Assembly (NCBI RefSeq): GCF_009914755.1
Contig: NC_060935.1
Source: the human T2T-CHM13v2.0 reference genome, Homo sapiens
Length of the DNA stretch: 64,000 nucleotides
Direction: 5' to 3' (one strand)
The translations under genes and the position numbers were made by a program. Shown one piece after another: positions 37,101-49,600 of the stretch; position 1 is the stretch's first letter; each line of letters starts with the position of its first letter. Below the pieces are notes generated by a model, which was not told where the DNA came from, made no database searches, and saw only the letters and a program-made list of their open reading frames with translations.

Positions 37101-38110
37101 ATATTATTACTGCTAATACCGCAGGGGGTGTACATCTACTTGTGATAATGTTCCTAATATCCAGGGATGGAGAGCATGATATTAGTTTTCATATCACAGT
37201 AGGTGTACACTCACCCTGTGACACCGATCCTAATACCCAGCTTGTAGAGTATGACATGACTGCCAACATAGCAATCAATGTACAGCCACCCGGTGATATT
37301 GCTCCTAATATTCACGGAAGAAGCGTATGATATTACTCCCAATATCGCAGGGAGTGTACACCTCTTCTGTGATATTGTTCCTAGTATCCCGAGGGGGAGA
37401 GGGTGATAATAATTCCAGCAACGCAGGCTGTGTTCACCCAGCCTGTGAAATTGTTATTAATATCCTGAAAGGGAGAGGATGATATTACTCCCCATAATAG
37501 AGCAGGAGGTGTACACCCACCCTGTGATATTCTTCCTAATATTCAGAGGCCGAGAGGTTGATATTACTCCCAATATCGCAGGAAGTATACACCCCTGTGT
37601 GAGATGGTCCTTCATAATATTCCAAGGCGGAGGGGGTGATATGACTACATATATGGCAGAAAGTGAACACCCCCCAGGGATATTGTTCCCATGATCCTGG
37701 AGGGAAGAGGATGATATTACTTTCAATATCACAGAAGGTGGACACGCCCCCACTGATATTGTTTCTAATTGCAACGTGGGACAGGAGGATATGACACGCG
37801 ATATCCGAGGGAGTGGAAACACCCCTGTGATACTCTTCTTAATATTCATGGAGGAAGAGGATGATATTACTCCCAATACAGAAAGGTGTACACCCTCTGT
37901 ACACTGAGGGTATACACCCATCTGTGAAACAGTTCATAATCTCCAGAGGGGGAGATGGTGTTGCTCAAAATAAGGTAAACAGGCTGTGAGTCCACCGCGG
38001 ATCCTAAAACCCAGGGGGGGAAGAGGGGCTAGCTCTTACTCCCCGCATCGCAGGGGGTGCCTCACCCCCCTGTGATGGGGGTCCTAAGAGCCAGGGGGGG
38101 AGAGGGGCTG
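34200..38110. repeat. SATR-type satellite field with AT-rich spacers (34200-34530, 36725-37105), GC-rich variant units (35620-35985, 37990-38110) and an inverted block (35990-36720)
   Basis: Same unit as 27690-30120; 35990-36720 reads as its reverse complement (CTGCGATATTGGGAGTAATATCATCCTCTCCCC). Confidence 0.88.
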
Positions 38111-38423
38111 TTCCCTACGTTGGGGCACTGAGGTCCCTGTTTTCTTGTAAGCTGCCATTGGGGACCACTCTCGGCTTCCAGGGGCCCCCTTGTAGGTGGC
38201 ACCATGGCCACTTGCCCTACTCCAAGCCTGCAGAAGAGCGCCTCTCTGCCATGTCCCTTTCTTTTAAAAGACTTGCCTGACTGGTTCAGGTCCATTAGGT
38301 AGCGTCCCATTTGATTAGCTCAAAAGTACTGTAGCCCATCACATTCACTCACAGGAGGGCATTAGCGGGGTGTGGACACCAGGGAGTGAGAATCTCTCAG
38401 GCCAGTTTAGCATTCAGTTGGTT

Positions 38424-46600: not shown

Positions 46601-49600
46601 CTGCCTTCTGCAAACAGGGCCCTGTTCCCCAGCAGCCCAGACCTGGGGCCTGGACTCTGGTACTGAGCAGACTGGGTTGGGGCTGCAGGCCTGCTCCTCT
46701 CTATACAAAGGCCCATGTCTGTATCTATGCCATGGGTGTACAACAGGCCACTTGCTCCTACCACATGCTCCGTGAAGCAGAGACCAAAACATCTGCTCCA
46801 AGTGTCATGAAAACTATGCCAGGGTAAGCCCTGTCCCCTGGTATGAAAAGGGAGAATCCCTGATGTGTTTTTCACACTGTCCCTAAGGGGTGTCCACAGA
46901 GCCCCACACCTGCCCCATGTAGCCACGAGACTTCACACTGACCCTCCAGTGTTGATGGGGCCCTGTGCCCGCTCTGGGGTATTAACAGAATGTCCATGGC
47001 ATGGAACCCCCATACCTGTCTCCAGGGTGTCCACACCCTACCCATCTGTCCCCAGTGTGTCCATAAGACTTCCCTTCCACCCCCGGAGTGTCCACAGGAA
47101 GCCCCACCTGCCTCTGCCATGTCCACAGGACCCTATGTGACCATGGGACCCCATATCTGTCCCTGGGATGTCTATGTCTCGCCAACCACCCACAGATAGC
47201 CATAAAGCCCCCTGCCCCGCCCCCCCCCCCCCAGTGCCCACAGCTATACTCACTGCTGAGTCCAGTCTTGTTCAGGGCACTGCCCACACCCCAAAGGGCA
47301 GCTGCCACATAGAGGATCCAGCTGTGTTGCAGGACCCGAGGCACAGGGGCCCAGAAAAAGAGGATGAAGGTGAGCAGCAGGTGCACCCCTGCTCCGGCCA
47401 CCAGGGGCACCGGGCGTGGCAGCCACAGGCCCAGCAGGCCCAGGAGTGAGGCGGCTGAGGCGCCCAGGCTGTAAGCCACGAGGAGGTAAGCCAGCCGCTC
47501 CAGCCCCACCGAGCACACGCCATAGCCCTGCGGGGGGACAAGGGGTGAGTGTTGAAGTCTGGAACAGCCCAGACCACAGTCTCAGCCCTCCCCGCATCGC
47601 GGGGGGTGCCTCACCCCCCTGCGATGGGGGTCCTAAGAGCCAGGGGGGAAGAGGGTCTGGCTCTTACTCCCCGCATCGTGGGGGGTGCCTCACCCCCCTG
47701 CGATGGGGGTCCTAAGAGTCGGGGGGGAAAGAGGGGTTGGCTCTTACTCCCCGCATCGCGGGGGGGTGCCTTACCCCCCTGCGATGGGGGTCCTAAGAGC
47801 CAGGGTGGGGAGAGGGGCCCCCCGCGATACGGGGAGTAAGAGCCAGGTGGGGAGAAGGGCTGGCTCTTACTCCCCACAAGAGGTGTTCCTTAGGCCACAC
47901 CCTGCCCTCCCTGGACTGCCTGACCTCGCTCCAAGGCTCAGGGGAAGGTTCTGAGGGCAGGTGTGAAAATGCTTGGAATGTCCCTAGACACCGTGGGCTG
48001 TACCCCACAAGGAACTAAACACTCTGTGGGTGCTATCCCATTTCGATTCAGAGAAGTTAAAATAACTTGCCCAAGGTAAAGGGGGGACGGGGGTAAGAGA
48101 GGGAAGAGAAAGCAGGAGGGGGATATTTGGGATATACATGTACACACTTACATATGTAATTAAAAATTATTCTTTGTTTACTTGAATTCAAATTTACCTG
48201 GCTATCTTGTCTTTTGTCGGGCAATCCTTTGCAGGCTGTACTTACCAAGGCGATACCAGTGCAGGCAAAGAGCACCTCGAAGCCGCTGTAGATAAAGAAA
48301 GGCACGAGGTGGCGCAGGCGGTAGTCACGCACGTGCTTGAAGGGCAGCTGGAAGATGTTGCCCCAGCCCACGCTGCGCAGATCGATCTCCTCCGTGGGCC
48401 GGTAAGCGGCTCCGCACAAACCCAGCACCTGCGAACCCATTACTTGAAGGGGCGGCCAGCCAGGCCCAGGCCTGGCCTCCAGGCTTCAGCCCCGCCCTTC
48501 AGATGCACCACGTGCCTGGGCCTTGCCCCAGCTCGGCCCCGCCTCCCAAACCAGGGCCCCGCCCCTGAGACACTCCCACAGACCCAGGTCTTGCCTTATC
48601 CCAGCTCAAGGCCCCGCCTCTCAGCACAAAGCCACGCCACCACACTCCGAAAGACGGTGGTCTTGCCTCCCAGCCCAAGGCCCCATCCCCTCTCTCTCAC
48701 ATACACACACTTCACAACTCACATTCAGACAAATCCATAGACTTCAACCTTCCTTCTCAGCCCCGCGCCAGACCTCAGCCCCGCCTTCCAGGCTAGTCCC
48801 CGCCCCTCGGACACACCCACAGACTTCGGCCCCGCGTCCCAGCACTAGGCCCCGCCCTGACACAGCCACGGACTGGGCCTTGCCTCCCAGCTCCATCGCC
48901 AGGCTGCAGCCATGCCAACGCCTTAGTTCTGCCGTCCAGTATCACTTCCAGTTTGAGCCACACCTTCCAGCCCTCACCCTTGGTCCTGTCCCCAACCCCC
49001 TCACAGGTCTCAGTCAGTCTTCTAAGATCTTGTCTCCAGCTCGAAACTGTGGACCAAGCCTGTTCCCTCCTTCCCCTGGCCTCTGGATGCCCACGCCTGC
49101 CTCGGACCACAGGCCTCAGCCCCGCCTCCGAGCCTCATGCCCGCTCTGCAGCACTCGGCCCTAGCTCCCCAACTCAGATCGCGCTCCCAGGCCTACGGCC
49201 TGCCCCGAGGCCACAACCCGACCCAGGCCATGCCATCCGATCCAGACCCTTTCTCGCAGACTCGGTCCCCAGAACCACACTCTGCTTCACTGACTGTCCT
49301 GCCCCCATCCCGGGCCGCACCAGCAGCATGGCCAGGAAGGCCACTGCCATGAGCACGCTCTCCACCACAATGAGGTTTCCGCTCCGCGGGAGCGTCCGCA
49401 GAACCGTCTTGTTGAAGCCGCTGAGGATCCCGTGGCTGTTGGTGCCTGGGAAGGGTGGGGGTGAGGGCACCGTGAGCAGAGAGTAGGGCACACAGTCAAT
49501 CCAGCCACCAGGGTGGAGCCACGCAGGCCGCGGAGGAGCGGTGGAGGGCGGGAGAGTGAGAGCAAGGGCAGAGTTCCTTCAGAGAGCAGTTTGGAGGTTT

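What the first reader, a model, noticed from the sequence alone, without database searches (positions are those of the whole stretch)
38000..47875. UNC93B1 exons 9-11 lie in a ~9.5-kb cassette bounded by direct copies of the same GC-rich hairpin repeat
Seen: the satellite field ends at 38000-38110 with CTCTTACTCCCCGCATCGCAGGGGGTGCCTCACCCCCCTGTGATGGGGGTCCTAAGAGCCAGGGGGGGAGAGGGGCTG. A near-identical unit in the same orientation forms the intron-8 array (47588-47875), ~60 bp from the exon-9 acceptor. Between the two lie only exons 9-11, the 3' UTR and downstream flank. Recalled: the dispersed UNC93B pseudogenes of OR7E segmental duplications carry only the 3' part of UNC93B1. Inference: these repeats are the ends of the duplicon. 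Recombination between them would excise or circularise, duplicate or delete exactly exons 9-11. That would explain the pseudogene structure and predicts an UNC93B1 exon 9-11 deletion allele that short reads would tend to miss.
Basis: partly seen in the sequence, partly recalled or inferred. Interest (0 to 1): 0.85.

Follow-up and report, generated by a model that had tools for sequence, protein, structure and literature searches.

The report
UNC93B1 tail splits a SATR array
The last three exons of the immune gene UNC93B1 lie between two halves of a known hairpin-forming satellite that belongs to the OR7E 'Xiao' duplication element, and all six human partial copies of the gene break off in the half that sits in intron 8, which is a neat but fairly ordinary case of satellite-guided segmental duplication.

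Summary
A GC-rich ~79-nt double-hairpin unit lies in the same orientation at 38000-38110 and at 47588-47875, flanking UNC93B1 exons 9-11.

- T2T-CHM13 holds exactly six partial copies (95-97% identical, introns kept). All six lose homology to the gene inside the intron-8 array. None contains exon 8.
- The left repeat is not the end of the duplicon. Four copies run straight through it, and with a rearranged fifth, five carry the satellite, a decayed retrovirus and the OR7E core to its left. For four of these, homology reaches at least window 12800.
- Only the chr11:67.70 Mb copy starts at 38111.

The repeat is the GC-rich variant of the SATR satellite. It forms the arms of the published Xiao/DA core duplicon, and SATR breakpoints are already documented. 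In other Xiao copies the array that starts at the 38000 equivalent runs on uninterrupted. The two "direct copies" therefore look like two halves of one array, split by the 9.5-kb UNC93B1 tail.

Today the repeats share at most 110 nt at 88-94% identity, with a longest exact run of 26 nt. That is a poor substrate for homologous deletion.

The order of events needs outgroup genomes. This is a new member of a known kind.

The parts
12800..18621 (.). Duplicated DNA to the left of the Xiao core. It matches chr16:5.235-5.240 Mb at 89-97% (a DA-type 16p-derived segment) and is collinear in 4 UNC93B-bearing copies.
18622..27650 (.). Xiao core duplicon with OR7E1P (25861-26883). Standalone copies elsewhere match only from about 18622 rightwards.
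   Evidence: hub annotation for OR7E1P
27694..30013 (+). AT-rich 75-76-nt satellite (SATR type), forming the left arm of the SATR-ERV-SATR element.
30050..34500 (-). Decayed gammaretrovirus-like gag-pol remnant (Gag_p30, RVP, RVT_1, RNase_H and integrase zinc-finger hits in broken frames). At least 35 copies genome-wide at 88-94%.
34526..35601 (+). Forward AT-rich 76-nt satellite.
35623..35979 (+). GC-rich array of the same unit as the finding (about 4.5 units). It marks the start of satellite core unit 'M'.
35987..36700 (-). Inverted AT-rich 76-nt satellite.
36927..36992 (.). AT-rich spacer.
37105..37878 (+). Forward AT-rich 75-76-nt satellite.
37880..37999 (+). Non-repetitive transition piece that precedes a GC-rich array in 35 other places in the genome.
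38000..38110 (+). Left repeat of the finding: the first 1.4 units of a GC-rich array, cut after ...GGGGCTG.
38111..47587 (-). Segment 'B': the UNC93B1 3' flank, exon 11 (42743-43500), exon 10 (45319-45437), exon 9 (47254-47527) and the last 60 nt of intron 8. Six further copies exist at 95-97% identity.
47588..47875 (+). Right repeat: the intron-8 island of forward GC-rich units (3 full units plus one with a 25-nt internal deletion). All six copies lose homology to the gene here.
47876..51400 (-). Remainder of intron 8 and exons 8-4. Single copy in this genome.

Best explanation
The GC-rich hairpin repeat is the GC-rich variant of the SATR satellite. It is part of the SATR-retrovirus-SATR arm ('SES') of a Xiao/OR7E core duplicon that abuts the 3' end of UNC93B1. 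The two direct copies are best read as the two halves of a single GC-rich array. In other Xiao copies the array that starts after the transition piece runs on for 2.5 or more units and is followed by inverted satellite. In the window, and in the gene's copies, the 9,477-nt UNC93B1 tail sits inside that array in place of 7 nt of one unit. The half in intron 8 is the shared break point of all six partial copies. These copies are unprocessed (introns kept). Five of them share one further derived junction, so the tail was captured once. It then spread passively about 15-20 Myr ago (inferred from ~4% divergence) inside Xiao/DA duplication blocks of at least 35 kb, to chr3, chr4 (twice), chr7 and chr11 (twice). 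The hairpin-prone array acts as a recurrent breakage and joining site: three different sequences are joined to it on the exon-9 side. It does not act as the two ends of a mobile 9.5-kb cassette. Shown: the anatomy, copy number, junctions and shared derived junction. Inferred: breakage caused by hairpins, homology-assisted joining, and the dating.
For: Copy number: the gene plus six copies, with 7 of 7 candidates scored. Right ends: all six end at window 47668-47818, inside the array. Three junction types lie behind the array. In P1, P4 and P6, 5-6 units are followed by one satellite core unit; the distance from the end of B to a junction with window-19618-like core DNA is 2556, 2638 and 2725 nt. 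In P2 and P5, 2 and 1 units run directly to the same 19618 junction. In P3, 2.6 units are followed by a subtelomeric duplicon. The array|19618 junction is full length in 5 loci only; 35 other core copies match only the core half, and 6 of 6 generic copies inspected continue leftwards like the window. Left side: the SES|B junction is crossed by P3-P6. The ERV block lies collinear with P1, P3, P4, P5 and P6, and the 12800-19600 block with P1, P3, P4 and P6. Generic arm: 35 other places match 37885-38110 and stop at the q224-233 equivalent, and many continue with further tandem GC units. L044 shows the transition piece, then 2.5 units, then inverted satellite. Identity of the element: satellite, then gag-pol remnant, then satellite next to OR7E1P. 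This matches 'SES = SATR-HERVE-SATR' flanking a 10-kb OR7E core (PMC2700803, Background part 1 read). It also matches the macaque SATR1-SATR1v core unit of a GC-rich array, inverted SATR1, an AT-rich spacer and forward SATR1 (10.1101/2025.08.04.668424, passages). SATR1/SATR2 mark duplication integration points at 8p23.1 (PMC5088589, passages). Hairpins. Introns kept: there are no gaps of 30 nt or more in introns 9-10 in 6 of 6 copies.
Against: The match in unit phase between the two halves (7 nt missing out of 79) would arise by chance about 1 time in 5, so 'one split array' is not proven. A functional gene cannot simply have been inserted into a satellite arm, so this reading needs either an older island in intron 8 or a secondary recombination with a pseudogene-bearing block, and neither is shown. 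The SATR1/SATR1v/SATR2 and HERV-E labels come from papers and from the architecture, not from a repeat-library search. Searches of the genome score only the best candidates, so counts of generic copies are lower bounds. The satellite right of B in P1, P4 and P6 is only 91-92% identical to the unit left of B, so it is a different and older unit. Whether it was present in the first copy or was added later is open. The tree of B is star-like.
Confidence: 0.8

Rival explanations
1. The two repeats are the ends of a 9.5-kb duplicon. Recombination between them excised or circularised exons 9-11, and that cassette was dispersed to give the pseudogenes.
For: Both repeats are real, direct and hairpin-forming. 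The right repeat is the homology end in 6 of 6 copies. One copy (P2, chr11:67.70 Mb) starts within 1 nt of the left repeat's edge.
Against: Five of 6 copies carry window DNA to the left of 38000: four cross the repeat collinearly, and four reach at least window 12800. P2 has no repeat at all on its left, and it shares its right junction (array|19618) with four copies that do have the left satellite. It is therefore not a re-inserted circle. The repeats share at most 110 nt at 88-94% identity, with a longest exact run of 26 nt.
Confidence: 0.05
2. Two independent satellite pieces. An old, isolated SATR fragment already lay in intron 8, and a Xiao element later landed by chance 9.5 kb away at the gene's 3' flank. 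The pseudogenes arose by ordinary duplication whose proximal break fell in the fragile intronic island. P2's start at 38111 is a secondary break at the satellite edge.
For: This is the simplest history for a gene that has stayed functional. SATR arrays are reported as dispersed through primate genomes (10.1101/2025.08.04.668424, passages). Arrays do end at unrelated DNA elsewhere (L043; P3).
Against: It requires several coincidences. The two pieces have the same orientation, the same GC-rich subtype and nearly continuous unit phase, and together they reproduce a generic arm. P2's break falls within 1 nt of the satellite/unique boundary. In the B tree the gene is the sister of P2, not an outgroup (94/99 support; 27 shared sites spread along all of B).
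Confidence: 0.3
3. Assembly artefact. The intron-8 array or the junctions are mis-assemblies of satellite DNA in T2T-CHM13.
For: Palindromic satellites are hard to assemble. This is stated for macaque SATR arrays in 10.1101/2025.08.04.668424 (passages).
Against: The same 60-nt-then-array boundary is present in all seven loci on four chromosomes, with locus-specific substitutions and unit numbers. The RefSeq gene model spans the island without disturbance (hub annotation).
Confidence: 0.02

Closest known systems
Xiao / DA composite core duplicons (Ji and Zhao 2008, not held here; Li et al. 2009, PMC2700803, abstract and Background part 1 read)
   Same: An OR7E core flanked by SATR-HERV-E-SATR ('SES') arms, present in dozens of copies on many chromosomes and amplified 25-14 Myr ago. 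The window shows satellite, gag-pol remnant and satellite next to OR7E1P, with at least 35 copies of the ERV block.
   Different: The passages read do not mention UNC93B1 or a gene tail lying inside an SES arm. Here only the right SES is present in the window, and 16p-derived (DA-type) DNA lies to the left of the core.
SATR1-SATR1v core unit of macaque subtelomeres (10.1101/2025.08.04.668424, passages read)
   Same: A variable GC-rich array, then inverted SATR1, then an AT-rich spacer, then forward SATR1, then a short unnamed repeat. This is the same order as window 35623-38000. The arrays are described as palindromic and associated with duplications.
   Different: The human units sit in interstitial Xiao arms, not in subtelomeric mega-arrays. 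Sequence-level identity to Dfam SATR1v was not tested.
Duplicative transposition into a Xiao element at 8p23.1 REPP, with the breakpoint in SATR2 (Mohajeri et al. 2016, PMC5088589, passages read)
   Same: A SATR array inside a Xiao element is the exact point where foreign duplicated DNA is joined.
   Different: That event moved 746 kb about 1 Myr ago. Here 9.5 kb of a gene tail is involved, and the copies are about 4% diverged.
psiUNC93B1 at the boundaries of the 'TBSD' duplication family (Hurle et al. 2011, PMC3038909, passages read)
   Same: These are the same pseudogene copies, next to 7E OR genes, SATR and HERV-E on 4p16.
   Different: That paper calls them retroposed. Here all six keep introns 9 and 10 and 4.6 kb of 3' flank, so they are unprocessed partial duplicates. 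Their common end in an intron-8 satellite is not described in the passages read.
PMS2 / PMS2CL (3' partial gene duplicate; recalled, plus the listing)
   Same: A functional gene whose 3' exons have a highly similar partial copy on the same chromosome. This complicates sequencing and allows exchange between the copies.
   Different: No recent conversion tract between UNC93B1 and its copies was seen (identity in 500-nt windows was 92.8-99.4%).

Membership tests
Xiao core duplicon with SES arm | A satellite-retrovirus-satellite arm | tested here: met
   There are 75-76-nt satellite arrays at 27694-30013 and 34526-37878, and gag p30, protease, RT, RNase H and integrase remnants at 30314-33797 on the minus strand. 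HERV-E specifically was not tested.
Xiao core duplicon with SES arm | An adjacent ~10-kb core carrying a 7E olfactory receptor pseudogene | tested here: met
   OR7E1P lies at 25861-26883 (hub annotation). The left limit of the core, at about 18622, comes from standalone copies.
Xiao core duplicon with SES arm | Tens of copies on many chromosomes at about 88-96% identity | tested here: met
   There are 35 non-self matches of 30050-34500 on chromosomes 2, 3, 4, 7, 8, 9, 10, 11 and 14, and at least 23 of 21200-27650. Both are lower bounds.
SATR1 / SATR1v / SATR2 satellites | Core-unit architecture: a GC-rich variable array, inverted SATR1, an AT-rich spacer and forward SATR1 | tested here: met
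   Window 35623-38000 and locus L044 show this order. They were compared with the description in 10.1101/2025.08.04.668424 (passages).
SATR1 / SATR1v / SATR2 satellites | Sequence match to the Repbase/Dfam consensus | not testable with these tools
   No repeat library is on hand. The name rests on the papers' description of Xiao arms.
Low-copy-repeat pair able to drive non-allelic homologous recombination | Direct orientation | tested here: met
   Both repeats are on the + strand.
Low-copy-repeat pair able to drive non-allelic homologous recombination | Hundreds of nucleotides of near-identity (threshold recalled, not from a call) | tested here: not met
   The best alignments are 72 nt at 94% and 109-110 nt at 88-89%. 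The longest exact run is 26 nt.
Processed (retroposed) pseudogene | Introns absent | tested here: not met
   All six copies align continuously through introns 9 and 10 and the 3' flank.
Segmental duplication (at least 1 kb and at least 90% identity) | Length and identity | tested here: met
   The copies span 5.8-9.5 kb at 94-96%. Pairwise identity is 95.1-97.4% over 5,851 columns.

The most novel reading that the evidence does not exclude
The copy at chr11:67.70 Mb (P2) keeps the ancestral 3' flank of UNC93B1, while the working gene's last three exons lie in a Xiao satellite arm. On this reading the tail was first copied into a broken GC-rich SATR array of a Xiao element. A block carrying that copy then recombined back into the parent gene within the 9.5-kb homology. 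This left one copy of the tail at each end of the ~288-kb chr11 duplication block, in the same orientation. Exons 9-11 of a gene essential for endosomal Toll-like receptor signalling would then have passed, wholly or in part, through a 'pseudogene' stage. The intron-8 island would be either the homology that primed the first copy or the scar of the return. Five findings support this. (1) P2 starts within 1 nt of the satellite/unique boundary, with single-copy DNA on its left. (2) P2 and the gene sit at the two edges of the block on the same strand, with P2 41 kb from the ALDH3B2-like exon. (3) The gene is flanked by both halves of one array, as the copies are. (4) P2 and the gene are sisters along the whole of B. 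(5) The first ~550 nt of B hold 9 P2-only changes and 0 gene-only changes.
Probability: 0.35. Interest if true: 0.6.

Novelty: new member of a known kind. Interest (0 to 1): 0.35.

Why it matters
Three points follow.

- **Pseudogene structure.** The finding explains precisely why every UNC93B pseudogene holds exons 9-11 only. It corrects the label 'retroposed' used in print (PMC3038909, passages).
- **SATR arrays as junction sites.** It adds a clean, base-level example of a SATR array serving as a recurrent junction point of the Xiao/DA duplicon network. That network also underlies rearrangements at 8p23.1 and 4p16.
- **Variant calling.** Exons 9-11 of UNC93B1 have six copies at 95-97% identity. 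Four keep an open frame and all keep their splice sites, so short-read variant calls in this part of a disease gene deserve care.

Tried and rejected
- **Recent gene conversion between the gene and a copy.** Identity in 500-nt windows ranges from 92.8 to 99.4% with no long identical tract. This was not pursued further.
- **Window position 19618 as the normal left end of the Xiao core.** Rejected: 6 of 6 generic copies continue leftwards like the window, and standalone copies start near 18622.
- **The satellite right of B in P1, P4 and P6 as a copy of the unit left of B, made in the same event.** Rejected: the two types differ by 8-9%, while copies within a type differ by 2-7%. P3's left unit is of the 'right' type.
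- **An inverted unit at the end of the intron-8 island.** I considered this, then rejected it on inspection. The segment is a forward unit with a 25-nt internal deletion.
- **P2's left flank as part of another duplicon.** The 538 nt next to the junction match nothing else. Further left lie an Alu-like repeat and a repeat with 40 or more copies.
- **Literature.** Searches found no paper that describes the intron-8 satellite or the common end of the copies. Newman and Trask 2003 (PMC430936), Ji and Zhao 2008 (PMC3092482) and Darai-Ramqvist 2008 (PMC2259101) are not held and may describe it. No supplements were opened.
- **Outgroup genomes, the pangenome and eccDNA data.** None can be reached with these tools.
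Full report
**Observation.** Tandem Repeats Finder gives a 79-nt period with 2.9 copies at 90% matches. A 50-nt core of the unit, with up to 3 mismatches, is found three times, at 38041, 47590 and 47669, all on the + strand; 100 shuffles gave none. 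One unit folds as two hairpins (-30 kcal/mol, z -5.9). The 288-nt array has z -9.9. An AT-rich unit of the neighbouring satellite has z 0.02. First, a third and larger array of the same GC-rich unit lies at 35623-35979. Second, the unit is a variant of the 75-76-nt satellite that fills 27694-30013 and 34526-37878.

**Copies of the gene tail.** I searched the window's own genome with 45000-47587. This gave exactly seven places, all scored: the gene and six copies. The copies are:
- P1, chr11:71.53 Mb (-)
- P2, chr11:67.70 Mb (+)
- P3, chr3:75.67 Mb (+)
- P4, chr4:8.93 Mb (-)
- P5, chr7:6.97 Mb (+)
- P6, chr4:9.49 Mb (-)

These are listed. They align to the window at 94-96% over 5.8-9.5 kb, straight through introns 9 and 10 and the 3' flank. 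They are therefore unprocessed partial duplicates, not retrocopies as stated in PMC3038909 (passages read). The stretch 47880-51400 (exons 8-4) has no paralogue; only an interspersed repeat matches, and 40 of 7,817 candidates were scored.

**Right end.** All six copies lose homology to the gene inside the intron-8 array, at window 47668-47818. What follows the array differs between copies.
- In P1, P4 and P6 there are 5-6 units, followed by inverted AT-rich satellite. The distance from the end of the tail to a junction with DNA like window 19618 onward is 2556, 2638 and 2725 nt. That equals one satellite core unit; the unit in the window, 35623-38110, is 2488 nt.
- In P2 and P5 there are 2 units and 1 unit, followed directly by the same 19618 junction.
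- In P3 there are 2.6 units, followed by a subtelomeric duplicon that matches 16 chromosome ends and chr2:114.0 Mb at 94-96%.

A 301-nt query across the array|19618 junction matches full length only at the P1, P2, P4, P5 and P6 loci. The 35 other places scored match only the core half (40 of 219 candidates scored). All six generic copies inspected continue to the left of 19618 as the window does. Five of the six copies therefore share a derived junction, so they have a single origin.

**Left end.** P3, P4, P5 and P6 cross 38000-38110 collinearly. P1 carries window 30673-35758, then an inverted 35853-36826, then 41745 onward. The block 30050-34500 lies collinear to the left of P1, P3, P4, P5 and P6. 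The block 12800-19600 lies to the left of P1, P3, P4 and P6. Only P2 starts at 38111: non-satellite DNA is joined within 1 nt of the satellite/unique boundary. The 538 nt next to that junction are single copy. The right repeat is an end in 6 of 6 copies, and the left repeat in 1 of 6.

**What the repeat is.** The stretch 30314-33797 (minus strand) holds broken Gag_p30, protease, reverse transcriptase, RNase H and integrase frames. It sits between two satellite fields and next to OR7E1P. This is the 'SES' (SATR-HERV-E-SATR) arm of the Xiao duplicon, a 10-kb OR7E core with 45 copies that amplified 25-14 Myr ago (PMC2700803, abstract and Background part 1 read). The order in window 35623-38000 is a GC-rich array, inverted satellite, an AT-rich spacer, forward satellite and a short transition piece. 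This matches the SATR1-SATR1v core unit described for macaque (10.1101/2025.08.04.668424, passages). SATR1/SATR2 arrays inside Xiao mark the integration point of a 746-kb duplication at 8p23.1 (PMC5088589, passages). The names were not checked against a repeat library.

**One array, split.** The query 37880-38300 matches 35 further places from about q6 to q224-233. Three of these are the far ends of the satellite units in P1, P4 and P6. Many of the 35 continue with more tandem GC units (40 of 215 candidates scored). In L044 (chr12:8.43 Mb) the transition piece is followed by 2.5 GC units and then inverted satellite. In L043 (chr9:102.93 Mb) 2.6 units end in unrelated DNA. In the window the array stops after 1.4 units at ...GGGGCTG, and the island begins with CTCCCCGC. 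The 9,477-nt tail therefore stands in place of 7 nt of one unit. In P1, P4 and P6 the tail sits inside an otherwise complete arm. The satellite units left and right of the tail are of two older types that are 91-92% identical to each other.

**History.**
- The tree of the tail (5,851 columns) is star-like. Support is 94/99 for gene+P2, 100/100 for P4+P6 and 88/93 for P1+(P4,P6). Pairwise identity is 95.1-97.4%.
- The 27 sites shared by the gene and P2 are spread along the whole tail. The first ~550 nt hold 9 P2-only changes, 0 gene-only changes and no shared changes.
- P2 and the gene lie on the same strand, 288 kb apart, at the two edges of the chr11 duplication block. P2 is 41 kb from an aldehyde dehydrogenase exon on the opposite strand.

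Two histories fit these facts.
- (i) An old island in intron 8, plus a Xiao element that landed next to the gene.
- (ii) Capture of the tail into a broken array, followed by recombination of that block back into the parent gene.

I cannot decide between them without outgroup genomes. I rate (ii) at about 0.35.

**The predicted deletion.** The two repeats share 72 nt at 94% and 109-110 nt at 88-89%, with a longest exact run of 26 nt. The 35623-35979 array shares 172 nt at 85% with the island. This is weak for homologous recombination (the threshold is recalled, not from a call). Breakage at hairpins followed by microhomology joining remains possible. No structure in this genome shows it.

**Verdict.** The repeat pair is real. 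It is correctly linked to the pseudogene structure on the intron-8 side and wrongly taken as the duplicon's other end. It belongs to the already described Xiao/DA-SATR system. The five literature searches found no description of the intron-8 island. Three key older papers are not held.

Noticed in passing
L004:6610-8107 (chr3:75,677,313-75,678,810): Directly behind the 2.6 GC units of copy P3 lies a subtelomeric duplicon. It is 94-96% identical to 16 chromosome ends and to chr2:114.0 Mb. Its first 67 nt are tandemly repeated at those ends.
   Followed up: partly
L002+L031 (chr11:71.53 Mb), equivalent to window 35758-41745: Copy P1 has an inverted 35853-36826 segment and lacks 36826-41745. Three of the four break points lie in the satellite.
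   Followed up: partly
window 43189-47527 and the six copies: The 234-codon frame of exons 9-11 is open in P2 (with a 3-nt deletion), P4, P5 and P6. P1 has a stop at codon 220, and P3 has a frameshift in exon 11. All five splice dinucleotides are kept in 6 of 6 copies. About half of neutral copies would be expected to stay open, so this is not evidence of function.
   Followed up: partly
window 38111-38660: The first ~550 nt of the tail hold 9 P2-only changes, 0 gene-only changes (about 5 expected) and none of the 27 gene+P2 shared changes. This may mark a switch point of an old exchange. It is a post hoc observation and partly lies within an Alu.
   Followed up: partly
window 39207: The gene lacks 67 nt that P2-P6 all carry. 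P2 lacks 43 nt at 38878-38920.
   Followed up: no
window 12800-18621: This stretch matches chr16:5.235-5.240 Mb at 89-97%, as well as many 8p23, 4p16 and 3q21 loci. The window's left part therefore looks like a DA-type composite, not a standalone Xiao.
   Followed up: no
loci to the right of P1, P2, P4, P5 and P6: The Xiao unit joined to the exon-9 side is a mosaic. Its OR7E core is 95% identical to the window, but its retroviral block is only 89-90% identical. The change lies across a satellite field.
   Followed up: no
L043 (chr9:102,927,900-102,928,650) and P3: Two unrelated loci end their GC-rich array at the same place in the unit, just after CTCACCCCCCTG in the 3' arm of the first hairpin.
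   Followed up: no
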